Part shown: positions 3,839 through 47,700 of the stretch, in pieces
Layout of the letters: every line of letters begins with the position of its first letter
Position numbering within the stretch: the first letter of the stretch is position 1
DNA from: an uncultured Chryseobacterium sp.
GTDB taxonomy: Bacteria > Bacteroidota > Bacteroidia > Palsa-965
Reading direction: 5' to 3'
Assembly (NCBI GenBank): GCA_966211705.1
Contig: CBIHOC010000024.1
Location: 9,319-73,318, forward strand
DNA: 64,000 bases
The notes under the pieces: generated by a model
The model's input: the letters and a program-made list of their open reading frames with translations, nothing else
Told to the model about the DNA's origin: nothing
The model's database searches: none
Program-made: the position numbers and the translations under genes

Positions 3839-3920
3839 TACCGTTTCGGGACGGTATTCGTAGTGTGGTACGAAAGGCTCCTTTAAAATGGGAGCTTTTC
3901 GTTTATACAAAATGTTTAAA

Positions 3921-4024
3921 AACCACTGAGAGCACAGAGGAAGTTTCACAGAGAGGCACAGAGGATTTTCTCAGTGTCCTCTGTGTTAACAGGTAGTGGT
4001 CATCCTCTGTGACCTCAGTGGTTT
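3921..4024. terminator. Long imperfect palindrome (aaccactgag...ctcagtggtt, inner cacagagg x3 / cctctgtg x2) between convergent genes. Putative bidirectional terminator and a member of the word-repeat palindrome family.
   Basis: Inverted repeats read directly in the sequence between the PorP stop (3838) and the minus-strand gene stop (4027). Confidence 0.45.
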
Positions 4025-4026
4025 TG

Positions 4027-4622: not shown

Positions 4623-4952
4623 TTACATAAATCCAAGTTCGAGCTGGGCGACTTCGCTCATCATTTCTTTTTCCCAGGGCGGCTCGAAAGTGATTTCGAC
4701 TTTGACCGATTTGACACCTTCAACGTCTTTCACTTTCATTTCCACGTCGGAGGGCAATGATTCGGCGGCGGGACAATTCGGGGACGTGAGCGTCATGATG
4801 ACCTTCACGTCGTTCTCTTCGTTGACGTTGATCTCGTAGATGAGCCCGAGCTCCCAGATGTCGACGGGGATTTCCGGGTCATAGCACATCTTGATCGCGT
4901 CGATGACCTTTTGCGCGAGCTCAGCGTTTTGGGATATAATAATAGCCGGCAT
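4623..4952 (-). CDS. SUF-system Fe-S assembly protein of the DUF59 / MIP18 (SufT-like) family
   Basis: MPAIIISQNAELAQKVIDAIKMCYDPEIPVDIWELGLIY...LTSPNCPAAE is a DUF59 signature. Start refined to the ATG at 4952. Confidence 0.75.
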   Translation of the reverse strand: MPAIIISQNAELAQKVIDAIKMCYDPEIPVDIWELGLIYEINVNEENDVKVIMTLTSPNCPAAESLPSDVEMKVKDVEGVKSVKVEITFEPPWEKEMMSEVAQLELGFM

Positions 4953-4964
4953 ATTTTTTTCGAA

Positions 4965-5040
4965 GTCTCCGCGTCCTCCGCGCCGCTGCGGCAAAAAATC
5001 AAGGATGAAATTTGCCGCAGAGGCGCAGGGAGCGCAGAGG
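4965..5040. repeat. Intergenic palindromic element (cctccgcgccgctgcggcaaaaaa...tttgccgcagaggcgcagggagcgcagagg) between sufE and the DUF59 gene
   Basis: Inverted repeat seen in the sequence. Shares the core ctgcggcaaaaaa / gccgca(a/g)aggcgcag with the element at 9768-9832. Confidence 0.4.
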
Positions 5041-5043
5041 TGT

Positions 5044-5463
5044 TTATGTTTTTGAACTCAATGCCAAAGCATCCATTTTCATTTGTTTCACCATCGACAG
5101 CAGGCCGTTGGAGCGGGTGGGCGAGAGGTGCTCTTTCAGACCGATCCTGTCGATGAACATGAGCGGCGCGTCCACGATCTCTTTCGGCGGATGGCCGGAA
5201 AGCACGCGCACCATCAGCGCCACCATTCCTTTCGTGATGATCGCGTCGCTGTCGGCGTGGTAAATGACTTTCCCGTCCTCCAGCTCCGTGTACAGCCACA
5301 CGCGGCTCTGGCAGCCTTTGATGAGGCGGTCGTCCGTTTTGTACCGCTCGTCCAGCGGCGGTAACGATTTCCCCAGGTCGATAATATACTGGTACTTATC
5401 GTCCCACTGGTCGAACATGGAAAACTCGTCCACGATTTCCGCTTCTGTTTCCGCGATGGTCAT
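5044..5463 (-). CDS. sufE: Cysteine desulfuration sulfur-acceptor protein SufE
   Basis: SufE motif LIKGCQSRVWL with the conserved Cys, 139 aa, located in the suf operon. Confidence 0.85.
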   Translation of the reverse strand: MTIAETEAEIVDEFSMFDQWDDKYQYIIDLGKSLPPLDERYKTDDRLIKGCQSRVWLYTELEDGKVIYHADSDAIITKGMVALMVRVLSGHPPKEIVDAPLMFIDRIGLKEHLSPTRSNGLLSMVKQMKMDALALSSKT

Positions 5464-9767: not shown

Positions 9768-9832
9768 CTCTGCGCTCTCTGCGCCTCTGCGGCAAAAAAA
9801 TGTTCGCCGCAAAGGCGCAGAGGACGCGGAGG
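9768..9832. repeat. Intergenic palindromic element (ctctgcgctctctgcgcctctgcggcaaaaaaa...gccgcaaaggcgcagaggacgcggagg) between sufB and sufC
   Basis: Inverted repeat read in the sequence and related to the 4965-5040 element. Located inside the operon, not at its end. Confidence 0.4.
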
Positions 9833-15067: not shown

Positions 15068-16111
15068 ATGCTTGACAACCAATCGAAAACAGAACTTTCC
15101 CGCCTCGGCGAATTCGGACTTATCCGTCACCTTACTTCTGCCATTGAGCTGAAGAACCCGTCATCGCTGAAAGGCGTGGGCGACGACGCCGCCGTGATCG
15201 ACTACGGCGGACCGAAGGTGAGCGTCGTTTCCACCGACATGCTGGTGGAAGGCGTTCACTTCGACCTTGCTTATGTTCCCCTGCGGCACCTCGGCTATAA
15301 GGCCGCCATTGTAAATTTCTCCGACATCTACGCCATGAACGCGCAGCCGAAGCAGCTGCTCGTGTCGATCGCGATCTCCAGCAAATTCCCGCTCGACGCG
15401 GTGGAGGAATTGTATTCCGGGTTATTGCTTGCCTGTGAACGTTACGGCGTCGACCTCGTGGGCGGCGATACCACTTCCTCGCAGATGGGCATGGTGATCT
15501 CCTGCACCGCGATCGGGGAAGGAGAGAAAGAAAAGCTGGCGTACCGCAACGGCGCAAAAGAAAAAAACCTGCTCTGCGTTTCCGGCGATCTCGGCGGCGC
15601 TTACATGGGGCTGCTCCTGCTCGAGCGTGAAAAAGAAGTGTTCAAATCCGACCCGAAGATCCAGCCCGACCTGGAAGGCAACGATTACATTCTCGAGCGC
15701 CAGCTCAAACCCGAAGCCCGTCCCGATGTGATCCAGATGCTGAACGACCTGGGCATCAGACCGACTTCGATGATCGACGTGTCCGACGGGCTTGCCTCCG
15801 AGCTGCTTCACATCTGCGACCAGTCGAACGTGGGCGCGCAGCTTTACGAAGAAAAAATTCCCATCGACCCGATGACGTACAACCGCGCGCGGGAATTCAA
15901 CCTCGACCCGACCATGTGCGCGCTGAGCGGCGGTGAAGATTACGAGCTGCTGTTCACGATCGACATGAACGATTACGAAAAGCTGAAGAACAACGCCGAC
16001 ATCACGGTCATCGGCCACATCACCGCGAAAGAATCAGGCGTGAACATGGTCTCGAAATCGAACACGGTTCACCCGGTGACGGCGCAGGGATGGGATGCGT
16101 TGAGAAAATAA
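15068..16111 (+). CDS. thiL: Thiamine-monophosphate kinase ThiL
   Basis: GEFGLIRHL...GVGDDAAVID...VSTDMLVEGVHF...GYKAAIVNFSDIYAMNAQP...LVGGDTT, an AIR-synthase-related fold with ThiL motifs. Start refined to the ATG at 15068 (track ORF begins at 15023). Confidence 0.8.
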   Translation: MLDNQSKTELSRLGEFGLIRHLTSAIELKNPSSLKGVGDDAAVIDYGGPKVSVVSTDMLVEGVHFDLAYVPLRHLGYKAAIVNFSDIYAMNAQPKQLLVSIAISSKFPLDAVEELYSGLLLACERYGVDLVGGDTTSSQMGMVISCTAIGEGEKEKLAYRNGAKEKNLLCVSGDLGGAYMGLLLLEREKEVFKSDPKIQPDLEGNDYILERQLKPEARPDVIQMLNDLGIRPTSMIDVSDGLASELLHICDQSNVGAQLYEEKIPIDPMTYNRAREFNLDPTMCALSGGEDYELLFTIDMNDYEKLKNNADITVIGHITAKESGVNMVSKSNTVHPVTAQGWDALRK

Positions 16112-16138
16112 ATTGTAGGTGCACGATGCATCGTGCAC

Positions 16139-16501
16139 CTACAATTTCGAATCGGTAACGACCATTGTCCCGATCGGCCCTTTTTGTATGATCTTCTTCC
16201 CCTTCTTTTTTGCTTTTTTGTAGAGGCGAACGGTGAATGTCTGTTCCTCTTTTCCTTTCAGCAGCGAGCTGAATTCCGCGCTCTCGCCGACGCCGCGCCT
16301 GACGCAGTCGCCCGACTGGTCGTAAATTTCATAGGAGACTTCCTGGCTGAATACGAGCTTGTGCTTTTCGCTGTCGTAATTAGCCGTGTAGGTTTTTCCC
16401 TGCACTTTGAACGTCGCGGAGTTCGTTGCGGCATCCTGGGCGGAAAGGAAATGGGCCGGGAGGCAGAACAGCAAAAGGAGAAGCAGCTTTTTCATGGTCA
16501 A
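16139..16501 (-). CDS. Hypothetical small secreted protein
   Basis: Signal peptide MTMKKLLLLLLFCLPAHFLSAQ. 120 aa, no known domain. Confidence 0.5.
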   Translation of the reverse strand: MTMKKLLLLLLFCLPAHFLSAQDAATNSATFKVQGKTYTANYDSEKHKLVFSQEVSYEIYDQSGDCVRRGVGESAEFSSLLKGKEEQTFTVRLYKKAKKKGKKIIQKGPIGTMVVTDSKL

Positions 16502-16564
16502 ATTTATACGTTCGATGTGAACTTAAGGTTCGAACGAAATGAAGTGCGCAATTAAAGGACACAA

Positions 16565-16765
16565 AAAAGAATTCTCACCGGGAAACCAATTTCCATCTGC
16601 CAGGAATTTCTTTGTGCCTTCGTGCCTTTGTGGCTTTCATTCTTATCGATCCGGCGAGGAAATTTCAACCTTCAAAAACGACATTCTCAGTGAGAGAAAA
16701 TTAATAATGCCACAAAGACACGAAGGCACAAAGGCTTTTCACCGGGGAAACCAATTTCCATCCAC
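16565..16765. repeat. Composite repeat element: 24-nt direct repeats (tcaccggg[g]aaaccaatttccatc at ~16574 and ~16741) flanking a 25-nt inverted repeat (ctttgtgccttcgtgcctttgtggc / gccacaaagacacgaaggcacaaag)
   Basis: Read directly in the sequence. Non-coding gap between two minus-strand genes. The architecture resembles a MITE or cassette-like element, or a large structured RNA. Confidence 0.45.
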
Positions 16766-16798
16766 ACCGAATGCCGCAAAATTTTCTCACGGCGGCAA

Positions 16799-18382
16799 TC
16801 ACATCTCTCCCGCTTCCGCTTTCTCTTCCACGATCTCACGGAACGCTTTGTTCTTCAGCTTGCTTTCGGCCCATGCGGGAAAGTCGAAATATTCGAACGC
16901 GGTTTTTTCGAACGGGTCCTGCTCGAGCTTCTGTAAATTTTCAAACAGCTCGGCGTAAAGCGGTGCGATCGCTTTTACATCGTCCGTTTTCGAAATTTTT
17001 TCGGCGAAGCGCAGGAACACGTTCTCGAACTGGTATGCGCGGTTCCTCGTTTTCAGGTAGCGCTGCACCGAACGCCCGACATACGGCAGCAGGTCGCGGT
17101 GGTCGAGCTCGATGTGCAGGATGAGCGCAAACACCTGCGCCACGGCGAAGATCCACTCGTTCTGCCCGACGCCGGGGTCGTTCACCAGGCGCGTGGTCCA
17201 GCGCAGCGCTTCGTGAAATTTCCCCGCGCCGTAATAGGCCACGGCCACGCTGATGCAGAAATGCGCCTCGCGCAGCTTGCTGAGCCGCCCCTCGAACCGC
17301 GTCAGCCCTTCCACGATCTTCGGCACGAGCGCCATCGCTTTGTCGAAATGCCCGATGGAGTTGTACAGCGTCAGCTCAAGGCTGTAGGCGCTGGAGAAAA
17401 GCTTGATCTCGAGGTCTTCGTTGCGCGCGGTGTCGAGCTTTTCGGGGAGCGCGCGCAGCTTGCTGAGGTATTTCAGCACCTCGCTGTAGCGCTTGAGGCG
17501 GCTGCACACGTAGATGAGATTGGTGAGCACGCCGAAATAAACGTTGGGCTCGTCGCGGAAAATTTCCGTATTCGCTTCGATGAGCAGCACGTTGGCGGCG
17601 AGGTGAGCATGGCAGCGTTCGGCATCGGCGATGGCGAAGTAATACGCGCTGTATGTGTGGTGGTAAAGGAAACGCGCGTTCACGCTCATGCCGTCCAGCG
17701 CCCGGTCCTTCAGCGACGCGTCGATAAGGTGGCGGAATTCGTCGAGCTCGCCGGATGCGCGGGCGCGGCCTTTGGTGTTGAGTATCAGGAAAAGGCGGCT
17801 CTTCACGTTCCACAGCTCGTTATAAACGCGGATATCTTCGGCCACTTTCCGGTCCTGCCCGAGCACGCGCACGATGCTTTCGTCGGTCATGCCGGCGTAG
17901 CTGTCTTTTTCCGCAAGCGCTTTTTCCATCTCGTGGATCTGCACCAGCACTGCATGCTTCTCGTATTTTTCCGCCAGCTTTTTCGCGCTGCGCAACCGTT
18001 TTGCGCATTGATCGTACAGCGTTTTTTTGTACAGGATCTCCGCGTAATGCAGCTCTTTCCACAGCTGCGCATCGATCGAACTGTTGTGGTGGAACACGTC
18101 GAGGCTGCGCAGGATCGTTTCGAAGAGGCGCGATTTGGTAATGCTGAGATTGTTGAGCAATGCTTCGCCTGCAAATTTTTTCAGGAGAACATCTTCATCG
18201 TACGCCGCCATTTTTTCGATCGCGTCGAACAGCGCCACGTACGTATTCTGCTCACCGATCGTGTGCCTGCCGGCGAAGATCTTGAAATGCCTTTTTTCCT
18301 GCTTGGTGAGCGAGTTGATCAGGCGGTGGAGCTGGTCGGAAGATTTGCCGGACATGTATAAAGATCGGATATGTTTGTGCAC
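16799..18382 (-). CDS. Hypothetical helical, TPR-like protein
   Basis: 527-aa ORF with no signal peptide and no recognised catalytic motif. Alternative start MSGKSS at 18355. Confidence 0.5.
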   Translation of the reverse strand: MHKHIRSLYMSGKSSDQLHRLINSLTKQEKRHFKIFAGRHTIGEQNTYVALFDAIEKMAAYDEDVLLKKFAGEALLNNLSITKSRLFETILRSLDVFHHNSSIDAQLWKELHYAEILYKKTLYDQCAKRLRSAKKLAEKYEKHAVLVQIHEMEKALAEKDSYAGMTDESIVRVLGQDRKVAEDIRVYNELWNVKSRLFLILNTKGRARASGELDEFRHLIDASLKDRALDGMSVNARFLYHHTYSAYYFAIADAERCHAHLAANVLLIEANTEIFRDEPNVYFGVLTNLIYVCSRLKRYSEVLKYLSKLRALPEKLDTARNEDLEIKLFSSAYSLELTLYNSIGHFDKAMALVPKIVEGLTRFEGRLSKLREAHFCISVAVAYYGAGKFHEALRWTTRLVNDPGVGQNEWIFAVAQVFALILHIELDHRDLLPYVGRSVQRYLKTRNRAYQFENVFLRFAEKISKTDDVKAIAPLYAELFENLQKLEQDPFEKTAFEYFDFPAWAESKLKNKAFREIVEEKAEAGEM

Positions 18383-21963: not shown

Positions 21964-22713
21964 ATGATCAATGCTGTAATTGTTGAAGATGAAAAGAAAA
22001 GCCGCGAAGTGCTCGAGGCGCTGGTAAAAACCAACTGCCCCGAAGTGAACCTCGTCGGCAGCGCGGATTCCGTGGCCGGCGGCGTTGATCTCATCCGCAA
22101 AACCAATCCCCGCCTCGTGTTCCTCGACATCGAGATGGCCGACGGCAGCGGGTTCGACCTGCTCGAGCAGGTGCCCAACACCGGCTTCGAGGTGATCTTC
22201 ACCACCGCTTCCGACGCGCATGCCCTGCGCGCCATCAAGTACAGCGCGATCGATTATCTCCTCAAGCCGATCGACGCCGACGAGCTGAAAGCGGCGGTGG
22301 AAAAGATCAAAACCAGGCAGACGGTAAACGAGAACCTCGAAAATCTGAAATTCCTCCTGCAGAATTTCCGCCGCCCGAACGAGCAGTACACCAAGATCAC
22401 GCTGCCCACCGGGAATGCATACGAGATCGTGAATGTGAAAGACATCATCCGCTGCGAAGCCGACGGCAGCTACACGAGCTTCTTCCTCGAGAACAAAAAG
22501 AAGCTGCTCGTTTCCGCCAGCCTCAAGCATTACGAGGATCTTCTCCCGCCCGACGATTTTATCCGCGTGCACCATCACCACCTCATCAACATGAGCCACG
22601 TCGTACGTTTCCTGAAAACCGACGGAGGCTACGCCGTGATGAGCGACGGCACACAGATCGAAATTTCCCGCCGCAAAAAAGACGCATTCATCCAGCGGCT
22701 GAATAAGATCTGA
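21964..22713 (+). CDS. LytTR-family DNA-binding response regulator
   Basis: Receiver INAVIVEDEKKSREVL...VFLDIEMADGSGFDLL plus a C-terminal LytTR domain. 249 aa, adjacent to its kinase. Confidence 0.9.
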   Translation: MINAVIVEDEKKSREVLEALVKTNCPEVNLVGSADSVAGGVDLIRKTNPRLVFLDIEMADGSGFDLLEQVPNTGFEVIFTTASDAHALRAIKYSAIDYLLKPIDADELKAAVEKIKTRQTVNENLENLKFLLQNFRRPNEQYTKITLPTGNAYEIVNVKDIIRCEADGSYTSFFLENKKKLLVSASLKHYEDLLPPDDFIRVHHHHLINMSHVVRFLKTDGGYAVMSDGTQIEISRRKKDAFIQRLNKI

Positions 22714-22771
22714 AATTCAAAGATTCAAACGTCTCGTCATGCATGACGAGACTATTCAAAGATTCAAAGAT

Positions 22772-22803
22772 TCGGATTGGCTGAGGTCAATCCGATTTTT
22801 TTT
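22772..22803 (+). terminator. Rho-independent terminator (tcggattggctgaggtcaatccga followed by TTTTTTTT)
   Basis: GC-rich hairpin plus T-run 60 nt downstream of the LytTR stop. It lies inside a larger palindromic block (22717-22890) built from ttcaaagattcaaa words and the perfect palindrome gtctcgtcatgcatgacgagac. Confidence 0.6.
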
Positions 22804-23321
22804 GCCCTGTCGCGATACTATTTGAATTTTGAATCTTTGAATAACAAGGCTCGTCGGAGACGAGACGAGTGATTGAATTTTTGAATTCGTGACACTTCTC
22901 TGACAATACGCGCTTCAGGAAAACTCCGCTCATCCGGCGCTTTCGCCACTTATACCAATTTCGTTTCCGGTTACCGCATGCGCTCAGCCACCTGTTAAAA
23001 GTGACTATCCTTTCCGTGTTTACAAGCGTAATATTGAATGGAAATCAGCTACAGGAATAGAATACGCTGATCGACAGGAAATCCGCTCATTGAAAAGCTG
23101 CTTTAAAAAAGAAAAGAGAAAAAGGCCCTGAGCCTTTGGGGTGCAACCGGATAGCTGACGTATTCGGGGATGTTGCGTCTACCGTTCGGTTCACCCTGCT
23201 CTTTCTTTCAAAATAATTCTGTAACGAAATCCAGCTGCGACGTTATAGAACAAAGAAGGAAGTCCGCTCTTCGGCAAGCAACGCGGGCAGTGAAGTCAAA
23301 ACCCCTATAAAATTGAGTGCC

Positions 23322-26629: not shown

Positions 26630-26915
26630 GCGGCTAAGTTAATTCATCTGCAGGGTTCACCTGAAACTTTTAGAGACTGTTTAAGATTCATCTTTCAAAA
26701 TGCTTATGCGTCTTTTTGCACCATACTTCGTTGTCCTTCTTGACCAGATTCTCTCCGATATGGCCTGCGAAGGACGCCTCGTCTGGCACAAAAATCCCCT
26801 TATAATCATTTCGAAATCTAAATCTTAAACAGTCTCTTAGTGGAGCGAGAATAATTTCCTGGCGATTAAACCTTTGGCGTGTTTCCCTGTCTTATGCAGG
26901 ATAACCGATGTCCCC

Positions 26916-43997: not shown

Positions 43998-44062
43998 ACC
44001 CTCCGTGCCTCCGTGTCTCCGTGGTGAAAGATCGTCAACCACGGAGACACGGAGGCACGGAG
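43998..44062. repeat. Near-perfect 25-nt inverted repeat (ctccgtgcctccgtgtctccgtggt / accacggagacacggaggcacggag) between sdhA and sdhB
   Basis: Read directly in the sequence. Intra-operon hairpin and a member of the word-repeat palindrome family. Confidence 0.5.
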
Positions 44063-46852: not shown

Positions 46853-46870
46853 GCGTAAAAAACCAAAACA

Positions 46871-46917
46871 AAAATTCCAAATCCCAAAGCAGCTGCGATT
46901 TTGGGATTTGGAATTTT
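46871..46917 (+). terminator. Hairpin aaaattccaaatcccaaa-gcagctgcga-ttttgggatttggaatttt downstream of rpoN
   Basis: 18-bp inverted repeat with a T-rich 3' flank, 19 nt after the rpoN stop. A/T-rich stem, so the terminator call is moderate. Confidence 0.5.
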
Positions 46918-46945
46918 GAGCTTTGTATTTTTTTGAGACCTGCTT

Positions 46946-47562: not shown

Positions 47563-47700
47563 GCGAATTACGAATCGCTGCGAATCTACGAATTACGAAT
47601 CGCTGGCGGAATGCTATGCCCTCAAAGGGTTGCGCGCAGCCATGCGCACCGGCAACCCTTTGAGGGTTTAGCATTCGTATCCGGAAAGAAATCGTAAATC
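47563..47700. repeat. Palindromic/repeat block (gcgaattacgaatcgct x2, gccctcaaagggttgc...ggcaaccctttgagggt, cgaatgctatgcc / ttagcattcg)
   Basis: Direct and inverted repeats seen in the sequence between convergent genes. Confidence 0.35.

What the first reader, a model, noticed from the sequence alone, without database searches (positions are those of the whole stretch)
16565..16765. MITE- or cassette-like composite element: direct repeats flanking an inverted repeat
A 24-nt direct repeat (tcaccggg[g]aaaccaatttccatc) occurs at ~16574 and ~16741. It brackets a 25-nt inverted repeat pair (ctttgtgccttcgtgcctttgtggc / gccacaaagacacgaaggcacaaag) and a central ctcagtgag palindrome. The whole lies in a 300-nt non-coding gap. 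Direct repeats around terminal-inverted-repeat-like arms suggest a miniature mobile element or recombination site. Alternatively it is a large structured ncRNA.
Basis: seen in the sequence. Interest (0 to 1): 0.5.

Follow-up and report, generated by a model that had tools for sequence, protein, structure and literature searches.

The report
Strain-specific compound hairpin repeat between genes
The repeats are real, but rather than a classic miniature transposon they form a strain-specific, roughly 190-base hairpin whose core arms are copies of a short eight-base-periodic repeat that is scattered between genes in this genome and in bacteria of other phyla, so it is best filed as an unusual relative of the extragenic palindromes (REP elements) already known in bacteria.

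Summary
The direct repeat (DR) lies at 16575-16597 and 16739-16762 and differs by a 1-nt indel. The inverted repeat (IR) lies at 16610-16634 and 16709-16733 with 1 mismatch. Both sit in a 303-nt gap between two minus-strand genes.

Each IR arm consists of three tandem 8-mers, (CTYYGYGN)3. The same module forms hairpins at four other places in the window, each 1-5 nt after a stop codon and each apparently within an operon or gene cluster. It also occurs in more than 120 metagenome contigs (GC 33-72%) and on Sphingopyxis and Thiodictyon plasmids. Only the arms recur. The 74-nt interior and the DRs were found nowhere else.

Relatives with 76-85% identity in the upstream protein have gaps of 46-100 nt without the element. 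A strain with 95% nucleotide identity carries an unrelated tandem-unit hairpin at the same site. One population variant has lost exactly one 8-nt unit.

As RNA, the minus (sense) strand folds into a long interrupted stem: a 25-bp core plus about 14 bp of DR:DR pairing through G.U pairs. I read it as a fast-turnover REP/REPIN-like compound palindrome that acts on the upstream gene's 3' UTR. That function is inferred, not shown. A strict MITE, a gene cassette and any Rfam family are not supported.

The parts
16570..16766 (-). The whole compound palindrome. On the minus (sense) strand RNA it forms one long interrupted stem-loop: DR:DR pairing, then short helices, then the 25-bp IR core, then a 74-nt branched interior.
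   Evidence: RNAfold gives -78.9 kcal/mol on the minus strand and -63.1 on the plus strand. The whole gap folds at -111.9 kcal/mol with z = -6.9 on the minus strand, against -85.3 and z = -3.8 on the plus strand. Expected paired bases are 24.9 for the IR and 13.7 for DR:DR on the minus strand, against 23.9 and 5.0 on the plus strand.
16575..16597 (.). DR1: TCACCGGGAAACCAATTTCCATC. The quasi-palindromic core GGAAACCAATTTCC is at 16581-16594.
   Evidence: This is one of only two copies in 64 kb. In population variant L157 it carries 2 of that contig's 3 SNPs.
16739..16762 (.). DR2: TCACCGGGGAAACCAATTTCCATC (one extra G).
16610..16634 (.). IR arm L: three tandem 8-mers, CTTTGTGC CTTCGTGC CTTTGTGG, plus C. 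It is a copy of the dispersed (CTYYGYGN)3 module.
   Evidence: Variant L157 lacks exactly one 8-nt unit of this arm.
16709..16733 (.). IR arm R: the complement of arm L with one difference. That position is C.A on the plus-strand RNA and G.U on the minus-strand RNA.
16635..16708 (.). 74-nt interior. It is unique sequence with two small local hairpins, including TTCTCAGTGAGAGAA at 16683-16697.
   Evidence: No similarity was found in 120 metagenome loci that carry the arms, in the window, or in relatives' loci. A scan of viral contigs with an interior 23-mer found nothing.
16771..16797 (-). Small hairpin next to the stop codon, directly after the 518-aa gene (minus strand: GCCGCCGUGAGAAAAUUUUGCGGC).
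   Evidence: It contains a third TTCTCACGG copy, at 16784-16792.
16563..16568 (-). U6 tract on the minus strand, 12 nt downstream of the 3' end of the compound stem.
   Evidence: Read from the sequence. It is too far from the stem for a canonical intrinsic terminator, and the terminator scan found none.
16499..16506 (-). TAAATTTG, a match to the Bacteroidetes -7 promoter box TAnnTTTG, 3 nt before the ATG of the small gene.
   Evidence: A TAnnTTTG box lies 3-14 nt before the ATG in the window and in five relatives: L001, L002, L004, L005 and L153. L156, whose gene is called with a GTG start, shows no such box at that position. The promoter consensus itself comes from my own knowledge.
16799..18355 (-). 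Upstream gene: a 518-aa helical-repeat hypothetical protein, conserved in Bacteroidia. Its 3' UTR would contain the element.
16139..16495 (-). Downstream gene: a 118-aa protein with a signal-peptide-like N-terminus.
3919..4025 (.). Family member: a nested hairpin of CTCTGTG/CTCAGTG units, ending 1 nt from the DUF2480 gene's stop codon.
4967..5039 (.). Family member: a hairpin of CTCCGCG units, 4 nt after the stop of the 139-aa ORF that I take by synteny with L175 to be sufE.
9768..9831 (.). Family member: a hairpin of CTCTGCG units in the spacer between sufB and the adjacent ABC-ATPase gene (sufC by synteny), 4 nt after the sufB stop.
   Evidence: It is absent from L175. In L174 it is replaced by a PF05635 gene with inverted arrays of 7-mer units.
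44001..44062 (.). Family member: a perfect 25-bp hairpin of CTCCGTG units between the sdhA-like and sdhB-like genes, 4 nt after the upstream stop.

Best explanation
The region is a strain-specific compound extragenic palindrome of the REP/REPIN kind.

**Core and outer layer.** Its core is two inverted copies of a 24-25-nt repeat module made of three tandem 8-mers, (CTYYGYGN)3 ending in GG. The arms bracket 74 nt of unique sequence. An outer layer is formed by two direct copies of a 23/24-nt quasi-palindromic sequence.

**Family.** The module is a dispersed extragenic repeat. In this genome it builds hairpins directly behind stop codons between co-directional genes that appear to be operon or gene-cluster partners. 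It occurs in unrelated bacteria as single copies, inverted pairs around unique DNA, direct arrays, and pure 8-mer tandem arrays.

**Proposed action (inferred).**
- The element is transcribed with the upstream 518-aa gene on the minus strand.
- There it folds into a long stem with about 47 paired positions: 25 bp of core, a few short helices, and about 14 bp of DR:DR pairing.
- This stem acts post-transcriptionally on the 3' end of the upstream message, as an exonuclease barrier, a double-strand RNase (RNase III-type) site, or a partial terminator.
- It would separate the upstream message from the small downstream gene, which has its own promoter box 3 nt before its ATG.

**Turnover.** The element is dispensable and changes fast. 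It was gained in this lineage, either by insertion or by recombination that brought in the whole spacer. Its arms change length by slippage of whole 8-nt units.

**Shown versus inferred.** Shown: the anatomy, family membership, dispersal of the arms only, presence/absence among relatives, unit slippage, and strand asymmetry of folding. Inferred: transcription, the RNA-level function, and the way it was acquired.
For: - **Repeats.** They are real and non-random.
- **Family in the window.** Five loci have two or more adjacent CTYYGYG units in inverted pairs. That is 19 two-unit hits against 1.7 in shuffles.
- **Position of the other four.** They start 1-5 nt after the stop codon of a co-directional upstream gene: after sufB, after the sdhA-like gene, after the ORF I take to be sufE, and after the DUF2480 gene.
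- **Distribution.** It also occurs on a Sphingopyxis indica plasmid and a Thiodictyon plasmid.
- **Only the arms recur.** The gap's similarity to 120 such loci is confined to 16604-16640 and 16702-16740. The Sphingopyxis spacer is unique too.
- **Arms are complementary more often than chance.** Partner arms match at all 5 variable positions in 13 of 76 pairs, where 3% is expected. Different window copies carry different units with matching partner arms.
- **Presence/absence.** Identical or near-identical copies are in L158 and L157. Gaps of 46-100 nt without the element are in L002, L004, L005, L153 and L156. L001 aligns at 95.5% up to 5 nt past the stop, then carries an unrelated 194-nt spacer with an ATTCAA-unit hairpin.
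- **Slippage.** L157 lacks exactly one 8-nt unit in one arm.
- **Sense-strand bias.** The single IR mismatch and the DR:DR centre are G.U pairs only on the minus strand. Folding differs by 10-27 kcal/mol in favour of the minus strand.
- **Published parallel.** For REPs, location behind coding regions between unidirectional or convergent ORFs, G.T pairing in stems, and inverted dimers 20-100 bp apart are reported as typical and read as signs of an RNA-level role (PMC3733652).
Against: - There are no transcription data, and no orthologous covariation is available to test.
- The two SNPs in L157 both break DR:DR pairs, which argues against strong selection on the outer stem. Coverage there is only about 6x, so they could be errors.
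- Sense-strand folding bias holds for 3 of the 5 CTYYGYG hairpins. One is neutral and one goes the other way.
- The U tract is 12 nt from the stem, and no terminator-like site was called.
- In metagenomes, inverted pairs mostly have the GG end at the stem base (66 against 5). Here the GG end faces the interior, and the 74-nt spacer is much wider than the 6-22 nt seen in the other pairs of that orientation.
- Many partner arms elsewhere carry periodic mismatches (CACYAAG opposite CTTYGTG), so simple stem conservation does not describe the whole family.
- Intergenic-type enrichment is weak: 38 tandem, 18 convergent and 8 divergent, against a background of 356, 120 and 104, from crude ORF calls.
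- The origin of the 23/24-nt DRs remains unexplained.
Confidence: 0.55

Rival explanations
1. A true non-autonomous transposon (MITE). The IR arms are its terminal inverted repeats, the 23/24-nt DRs are an unusually long target-site duplication, and a transposase encoded elsewhere in the genome moves it.
For: - It has direct repeats around inverted repeats.
- The element is absent from relatives, and the spacer is about 200 nt longer than in them.
- The arms belong to a dispersed family.
Against: - The DRs are separated from the arms by 12 and 5 nt, and they are far longer than usual duplications.
- The interior and DRs are unique in the window, in 120 arm-bearing loci and in relatives.
- The DR core gives only chance-level single hits in 185,579 species genomes.
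- No protein family recurs near the modules; the largest shared family covers 5 of 120 loci.
- Compared with L001, the whole spacer plus the first 18 or so codons of the small gene differ. That fits replacement by recombination better than a clean insertion.
- The source genome outside the 64-kb window could not be scanned.
Confidence: 0.12
2. Not mobile and not selected. The hairpin grew in place by slippage of 8-nt units and by template switching within a palindrome, as a neutral by-product of replication in a tolerant spacer. The DRs are a local duplication.
For: - One-unit slippage is seen in a natural variant.
- Pure 8-mer tandem arrays of the same units exist in L054 and in Burkholderia plasmids.
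- Interiors are always unique.
- Other hairpins of this lineage are built from other 7-8-nt units (ATTCAAAG, TCCCAAA, CAATG, CYRGAAA), which points to a process rather than one element.
Against: - The same unit pattern and the same 3' flank (GG-Y-N-A-A) recur in contigs with GC from 33 to 72% and in three bacterial classes. Independent growth in place does not easily explain that.
- The hairpins sit 1-5 nt behind stop codons in four of four other cases.
- Folding favours the sense strand.
Confidence: 0.2
3. A DNA-level regulatory region. The two 14-bp quasi-palindromes GGAAACCAATTTCC are operator sites for a dimeric regulator that controls the small downstream gene, perhaps by looping out the hairpin.
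For: - DR1 lies about 80-100 nt upstream of the small gene's ATG and promoter box.
- The DR core is palindromic, and it occurs only here in 64 kb.
- Two-component regulator genes are nearby.
Against: - Relatives keep the small gene and its promoter box but have no such sites.
- The 164-nt spacing does not fit the closely spaced direct-repeat sites that, to my knowledge, LytTR regulators use.
- The L157 variant has two changes in the DR1 core.
- Nothing links the sites to any regulator.
Confidence: 0.07
4. An independent small RNA gene, or a cis-regulatory leader of the small gene.
For: The minus-strand fold is strong, with z = -6.9.
Against: - No Rfam family matches. The only hits are generic miRNA-hairpin matches at 20-31 bits against thresholds of 70-211.
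- The promoter box conserved in five relatives lies 3 nt before the ATG, so the element is upstream of the small gene's likely start site.
- The element is not conserved in relatives.
Confidence: 0.05

Closest known systems
REP elements and their inverted dimers (BIMEs of E. coli; REPINs of Pseudomonas fluorescens; the GTAG/CGTC-tagged REP super-families of Di Nocera et al. 2013, PMC3733652)
   Same: - Short, high-copy extragenic repeats.
- Located just behind coding regions between co-directional or convergent genes, including inside operons.
- Occur as single copies, as inverted dimers 20-100 bp apart that fold into larger hairpins, and as arrays.
- G.T (G.U) pairs in stems suggest an RNA role.
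- Copy content differs between strains.
   Different: - The unit here is not itself a palindrome. It is three tandem 8-mers.
- There is no unpaired GTAG or CGTC tag.
- The same unit pattern occurs across phyla rather than being specific to a species or genus.
- No RAYT transposase could be linked to it.
- The outer 23/24-nt direct repeats have no REP counterpart.
Correia elements (CREE/NEMIS) of Neisseria
   Same: - A 100-160-nt intergenic element with inverted repeats of about 26 bp.
- Co-transcribed with neighbouring genes.
- The hairpin formed by the repeats is a substrate for RNase III and alters mRNA stability (my own knowledge of the Neisseria literature).
- Strain-to-strain presence/absence.
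   Different: - Correia elements have a conserved interior, a TA target duplication, and hundreds of near-identical copies in a genome.
- Here only the arms recur, and the flanking repeats are 23/24 nt.
Cyanobacterial STRR heptamer arrays and small dispersed repeats (SDR; Elhai et al. 2008, from memory)
   Same: - Intergenic arrays of tandem 7-8-nt units.
- Very small (21-27 nt) repeats embedded in hairpins and in tandem-unit arrays.
- Nested, compound structures.
   Different: - A different phylum and different sequences.
- SDRs are many-copy within a genome, whereas the DR here has two copies in 64 kb and none elsewhere that I could find.
Intervening sequences of 23S rRNA and their PF05635 (four-helix-bundle, Avd-like) genes
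   Same: - A unique interior, sometimes with a PF05635 ORF, bracketed by inverted repeats that form a long stem.
- In L174 such a gene, flanked by inverted arrays of 7-nt units, occupies the site where this genome has a CTCTGCG-unit hairpin.
   Different: - The element studied here has no ORF and is not in an rRNA gene.
- No PF05635 homologue was found in the window or in any other fetched locus, including the 120 module-bearing metagenome loci.

Membership tests
MITE (miniature inverted-repeat transposable element) | Inverted repeats at the very ends of the element, directly flanked by a short target-site duplication (typically 2-14 bp) | tested here: not met
   The DRs are 23/24 nt and lie 12 nt and 5 nt away from the IR arms.
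MITE (miniature inverted-repeat transposable element) | Multiple copies in the genome that share the interior as well as the ends | tested here: inconclusive
   There is no second copy in the 64-kb window. The interior is absent from 120 arm-bearing loci. The rest of the source genome was not available.
MITE (miniature inverted-repeat transposable element) | A related autonomous element whose transposase recognises the same ends | not testable with these tools
   No protein family recurs next to the modules, but whole genomes could not be searched.
MITE (miniature inverted-repeat transposable element) | Presence/absence polymorphism at orthologous sites | tested here: met
REP / REPIN | A 20-40-nt unit that is itself an imperfect palindrome | tested here: not met
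   The 24-25-nt module is a tandem 8-mer array, not a palindrome. The DR core is a weak 5-bp palindrome, but it is not dispersed.
REP / REPIN | An unpaired GTAG or CGTC tag at one end (PMC3733652) | tested here: not met
   The module ends in GTGG, and this pairs with CCAC in the partner arm.
REP / REPIN | High-copy, extragenic, mostly behind genes between co-directional or convergent ORFs | tested here: met
   Five loci in 64 kb, all behind stop codons of co-directional genes. In metagenome loci the enrichment for such spacers is only mild.
REP / REPIN | Inverted dimers that fold into a larger hairpin | tested here: met
REP / REPIN | A RAYT (IS200/IS605-like Y1) transposase gene in the genome, flanked by the repeats | not testable with these tools
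   None of the 17 window ORFs scanned against Pfam is a transposase. The remaining window ORFs and the rest of the genome were not examined.
Integron gene cassette / attC site | An imperfect palindrome bounded by RYYYAAC and GTTRRRY core sites, next to a promoterless ORF, with an integron integrase nearby | tested here: not met
   I saw no such core-site pair at the boundaries when reading the sequence, though I ran no dedicated pattern scan. Both flanking genes are conserved, syntenic chromosomal genes.
Canonical intrinsic terminator | A short G+C-rich stem with a 3-8-nt loop, followed immediately by a U tract | tested here: not met
   The scan found none. The U6 tract is 12 nt from the end of the stem.
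Any Rfam RNA family | A score at or above the family's gathering threshold | tested here: not met
   There were 0 matches in the window. The only hits were sub-threshold generic miRNA-hairpin matches. None was found for family members in 11 other loci.

The most novel reading that the evidence does not exclude
The IR arms are copies of a repeat family for which I found no description: the module (CTYYGYGN)3-GG-YNAA with 8-nt periodicity. The family is found across phyla: in Bacteroidia, Alpha- and Gammaproteobacteria, and contigs with GC from 33 to 72%. It behaves like REP elements, occurring as single copies, as inverted pairs around unique DNA, and as arrays. It lodges directly behind stop codons, including between genes that appear to be operon partners, and it turns over between strains. 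It lacks the REP palindrome, the REP tag and any linked transposase. That would imply an unknown way of spreading or being generated, possibly unit slippage combined with hairpin-templated copying, or a link to the PF05635-gene insertions that occupy the same sites in relatives.
Probability: 0.35. Interest if true: 0.65.

Novelty: new variant of a known kind. Interest (0 to 1): 0.4.

Why it matters
- **For this locus, not much.** The element is dispensable and strain-specific, lying between a conserved hypothetical gene and a small gene for a protein with a signal-peptide-like leader.
- **The wider point is more interesting.** Long hairpins whose arms are arrays of 7-8-nt units seem to be the main variable component of intergenic spacers in this Bacteroidia lineage.
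- **Turnover.** Three spacers differ in this way between close relatives.
- **Reach.** One unit family, CTYYGYG, reaches across phyla without a recognisable mobilising gene.
- **If the hairpins act on mRNA 3' ends,** they would be a cheap and rapidly evolving way to retune expression within operons. The candidate sites are the spacers after sufB and after the sdhA-like gene.
- **If they are selfish,** they point to a spreading mechanism that has not been described.
- **Practical note for annotation.** Spurious ORFs run across these hairpins, for example 4805-5299.

Tried and rejected
- **Rfam.** Nothing reached gathering thresholds in the window. A permissive scan of the gap gave only generic plant/animal miRNA-hairpin models at 20-31 bits against thresholds of 70-211. 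An Acido-Lenti-1 hit on the Thiodictyon plasmid is a different, unrelated hairpin.
- **tRNA/tmRNA.** None found, so there is no tRNA-linked integration site.
- **DR as a dispersed repeat.** The 18-mer core gave 25 single hits in unrelated phyla in 185,579 genomes, about the number I estimated by hand for chance (roughly 17). Several fall in alphaproteobacterial coding sequence encoding GGETNFHP, which I read as purL. I considered that the DR might be a purL fragment and rejected the idea. The hits collapse to about 17 independent events, and the similarity does not extend further.
- **Viral contigs.** The DR 17-mer gave 11 single chance hits, and an interior 23-mer gave none.
- **Plasmid and phage-style origin.** Plasmid BLAST found only the arms.
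- **A mobilising gene next to the modules.** All-against-all clustering of 1,550 ORFs within 2.5 kb of the modules in 120 loci gave no recurrent family; the largest covers 5 loci. tblastn with the L174 PF05635 protein found no other copy.
- **Literature.** Four searches used module sequence strings or REP plus Bacteroidota terms. They returned nothing relevant.
- **Same element family as L001's hairpin.** L001's element and window 22705-22843 share only ATTCAAAG units, not the interior.
- **Canonical terminator, attC site, dif/Xer site, LytTR operator.** None fits the anatomy. Only the terminator was scanned for with a tool; the other three were judged from the sequence and from my own knowledge of those sites.
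Full report
**Observation**

- A 23/24-nt direct repeat (DR), TCACCGGG(G)AAACCAATTTCCATC, lies at 16575-16597 and 16739-16762.
- A 25-nt inverted repeat (IR) lies at 16610-16634 and 16709-16733, with one mismatch.
- A small palindrome, CTCAGTGAG, sits in the 74-nt interior.
- Neither long repeat has any match at up to 3 mismatches in 100 dinucleotide shuffles of the window. Neither occurs anywhere else in the 64 kb.

The gap spans 16496-16798 (303 nt). Both neighbouring genes are on the minus strand.
- The upstream gene is a 518-aa hypothetical protein with no Pfam hit. Some homologues are labelled TPR. Its stop codon is at 16799-16801.
- The downstream gene encodes a 118-aa protein with a signal-peptide-like N-terminus. 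Its ATG is at 16495.

Each IR arm is three tandem 8-mers: CTTTGTGC CTTCGTGC CTTTGTGG.

The DR core GGAAACCAATTTCC is a quasi-palindrome whose centre reads UUGG on the minus strand. On minus-strand RNA the two direct copies can therefore pair with each other over 14 positions using G.U pairs. On the plus strand the same centre gives four C.A mismatches.

The single IR mismatch behaves the same way: G.U on the minus strand, C.A on the plus strand. The folding results follow from this:

| Segment | Minus strand | Plus strand |
|---|---|---|
| Whole gap (kcal/mol; z-score) | -111.9; z = -6.9 | -85.3; z = -3.8 |
| 16570-16766 (kcal/mol) | -78.9 | -63.1 |
| Expected paired bases, IR | 24.9 | 23.9 |
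| Expected paired bases, DR:DR | 13.7 | 5.0 |

The minus strand is the sense strand of both neighbouring genes.

**The arms belong to a dispersed family**

A scan of the whole window for inverted repeats found four more hairpins whose arms are two or three tandem CTYYGYG units:

| Location | Unit | Position relative to the upstream stop codon |
|---|---|---|
| 3919-4025 | CTCTGTG/CTCAGTG, nested | 1 nt from the DUF2480 gene's stop |
| 4967-5039 | CTCCGCG | 4 nt after the stop of the ORF I take to be sufE |
| 9768-9831 | CTCTGCG | 4 nt after the sufB stop |
| 44001-44062 | CTCCGTG, 25 of 25 bp | 4 nt after the sdhA-like gene's stop |

- Two-unit matches number 19, against 1.7 in shuffles.
- All four lie between co-directional genes, and three of the four are in spacers that look intercistronic: after sufB, after the ORF taken as sufE, and between the sdhA-like and sdhB-like genes. 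SufB, the sdhA/B-like pair and DUF2480 have Pfam support. The sufC and sufE names rest on synteny with L174-L176.
- The copies differ in their units, mostly by C/T changes, while the partner arm matches.
- Other hairpins in the window use other 7-8-nt units: ATTCAAAG at 22705-22843 and TCCCAAA/TTCCAAA at 46857-46931.

**Distribution beyond this genome**

They come from soils, sediments and sludge, with GC from 0.33 to 0.72.
- The consensus over 130 copies is TtT(CTTCGTGt)2CTTCGTGG-Y-N-A-a.
- The modules occur in four arrangements:
  - alone;
  - as inverted pairs, 66 with the GG end at the base of the stem and 5 with it facing the loop, as here, with spacers of 6-252 nt;
  - as direct arrays (L033);
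  - as pure (CTTTGTGG)n tandem arrays (L054).
- In cultured organisms, identical arms bracket a unique 98-nt spacer between convergent genes on Sphingopyxis indica pMC4, which has 6 such places.
- Nested arrays lie between anti-phage genes on Thiodictyon pTs485.
- Burkholderia replicons carry pure 8-mer arrays.
- BLAST of the whole 303-nt gap against the 120 loci matched only 16604-16640 and 16702-16740. The DRs and the interior never matched.
- Partner arms agree at all five variable positions in 13 of 76 pairs, where 3% is expected. Many other pairs carry periodic mismatches.
- No protein family recurs near the modules.
- With crude ORF calls, the modules are mildly enriched between convergent genes and depleted between divergent ones, with no strand bias.

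**The DRs**

- The 18-nt core gave 25 single hits in 185,579 species genomes, all in unrelated phyla. That is about the number I estimated by hand for chance, roughly 17.
- Several hits are one conserved alphaproteobacterial coding sequence encoding GGETNFHP, which I read as purL. Counted as independent events, the hits come to about 17.
- The source genome is not in that collection, so the copy number of the DR in the rest of the genome is unknown.

**Orthologous loci**

The source is an uncultured Bacteroidia bacterium.

| Locus | Similarity to the window | Spacer |
|---|---|---|
| L158 | 99.84% nt | identical gap |
| L157 | 99.83% nt over 6.3 kb | same gap, but one 8-nt unit of arm L is missing, and 2 of its 3 SNPs fall in the DR1 core and both break DR:DR pairs |
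| L001 | 95.5% nt | 194 nt, unrelated compound hairpin of ATTCAA units |
| L153, L002, L004, L005, L156 | 81-85% aa identity in the upstream protein | 78, 46, 65, 100 and 49 nt, no such hairpin |

- L001 aligns up to 5 nt past the stop codon. It then diverges until about codon 18 of the small gene. The terminator palindrome behind the small gene also differs between the window and L001.
- A TAnnTTTG box lies 3-14 nt before the small gene's ATG in the window and in five relatives: L001, L002, L004, L005 and L153. L156, whose gene is called with a GTG start, shows no such box. I read this box as the Bacteroidetes -7 promoter element, from my own knowledge. On that reading the element lies upstream of the small gene's promoter, in the 3' region of the upstream gene.

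A second spacer behaves the same way.
- The hairpin after sufB (9768-9831) is present in L176, at 99.7% identity.
- It is absent from L175, which has a 39-nt spacer at 81% identity.
- In L174 (about 90% nt identity; SufB protein 99%) it is replaced by a 168-aa PF05635 gene flanked by inverted arrays of 7-nt units. A JGI contig whose SufB is 98% identical carries the same gene in that spacer.

**Interpretation**

The element is best described as a compound extragenic palindrome of the REP/REPIN kind. It is built from two inverted copies of a dispersed module with 8-nt periodicity. It is dispensable, specific to this lineage, and changes by whole-unit slippage.

The most likely mode of action is at the RNA level.
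- The element would be co-transcribed with the upstream gene and fold into a long stem.
- That stem could block 3' exonucleases, be cut by a double-strand-specific RNase, or partly terminate transcription.
- This is inferred from three observations: the position behind the stop codon, the G.U asymmetry favouring the sense strand, and the parallel with published REP properties (PMC3733652).
- Nothing here shows transcription or function.

**Why not the alternatives**

- **Strict MITE.** This fails on anatomy: the arms are not terminal, and the repeats are 23/24 nt and do not abut them. It also fails on the uniqueness of the interior. The rest of the genome could not be checked, so I leave it about 12%.
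- **Growth in place without function.** This is supported by the slippage variant and by the variety of unit families. It is weakened by the recurrence of the same unit and the same 3' flank across phyla. About 20%.
- **Operator sites or an independent sRNA.** These are unlikely. Relatives lack the sequence but keep the gene and, in five of them, its promoter box, and no Rfam family matches.

**Unexplained**

- The origin of the 23/24-nt direct repeats.
- Why this genome places the GG end of the module towards the loop, while most metagenome pairs place it at the stem base.
- The periodic mismatches in many pairs elsewhere.
- What spreads or generates the modules.

**Novelty**

- Four literature searches (three with module sequence strings, one with REP plus Bacteroidota terms) and the Rfam scans returned no description of this module.
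- Extragenic palindromic repeats as a class are well known.
- I therefore rate the finding as a new variant of a known kind, with moderate interest (0.4).
- I give a 35% chance that the cross-phylum module family is truly undescribed and mechanistically distinct.

Noticed in passing
window 9768-9831; L174:3786-4411: This genome has a CTCTGCG-unit hairpin in the spacer after sufB. A relative (about 90% nt identity; SufB 99% aa) instead has a 168-aa PF05635 gene (23S rRNA intervening-sequence protein, Avd-like four-helix bundle) flanked by inverted arrays of 7-nt units: GTTTCNR upstream and (CYRGAAA)x11 downstream. A JGI contig whose SufB is 98% identical carries the same gene in that spacer. 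The gene looks like a small insertion cassette bracketed by tandem-unit inverted repeats.
   Followed up: partly
window 26672-26837: A 166-nt hairpin with 36-nt outer arms, lying between divergent genes. It folds far better on the minus strand (-76.4 kcal/mol) than on the plus strand (-50.7), which suggests a minus-strand RNA element or leader. No Rfam match.
   Followed up: no
window 16110-16147; L001:6117-6199: A perfect 19+19-nt palindrome lies exactly between the convergent stops of the small gene and the AIRS-domain gene. In the 95%-identical strain, a different hairpin with CAATG-like units replaces it.
   Followed up: partly
window 22705-22843; L001:5570-5715: A compound hairpin built from ATTCAAAG units lies behind the LytTR response-regulator gene. 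The same unit family forms the hairpin that occupies the studied gap in strain L001, but the interiors are unrelated.
   Followed up: yes
window 46857-46931 and 47609-47676: Two more strong intergenic hairpins: one behind the sigma-54 gene built from TTCCAAA/TCCCAAA units, and one G+C-rich with 25-nt arms.
   Followed up: no
L157:2700-3006 (= window 16490-16805): This population variant differs from the window in 6.3 kb by only 3 SNPs and one indel. The indel removes exactly one 8-nt unit of IR arm L, and 2 of the 3 SNPs lie in the DR1 core. The element is therefore the most variable spot in the region. Alternatively, these are errors from an assembly with about 6x coverage.
   Followed up: partly
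window 16493-16506 and the matching sites in L001, L002, L004, L005, L153: A TAnnTTTG box lies only 3-14 nt before the ATG of the small gene for a signal-peptide-like protein, in the window and in five relatives (L156, called with a GTG start, has no such box there). This suggests a leaderless or nearly leaderless transcript.
   Followed up: no
window 16572, 16736, 16784: TTYTCACSG occurs three times on the plus strand within the 303-nt gap: twice as the head of the DRs and once right next to the upstream stop codon. The whole window has 10 copies where 3.9 are expected. It resembles the TCTCAC/GTGAGAGA ends of the modules on the Sphingopyxis and Thiodictyon plasmids, so the gap may hold decayed older module copies.
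   Followed up: partly
window 4805-5299 (minus strand): A 164-aa ORF with no Pfam hit runs straight across the hairpin at 4967-5039 and overlaps the ORF I take to be sufE. It is almost certainly spurious. Hairpins of this kind can mislead ORF calling.
   Followed up: partly
L172:2462-2506: An Acido-Lenti-1 RNA (RF01687; 40.5 bits against a threshold of 37) on the Thiodictyon plasmid, between anti-phage DUF3780 and DUF1156 genes. It is unrelated to the modules.
   Followed up: no
L011, L013, L017, L021, L024, L026, L027: The DR2 sequence CGGGGAAACCAATTTCCATCC is identical over 21 nt to a conserved stretch of alphaproteobacterial coding sequence (codons GGETNFHP) that I read as purL. I judged this a coincidence, given the number of hits expected by chance.
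   Followed up: yes
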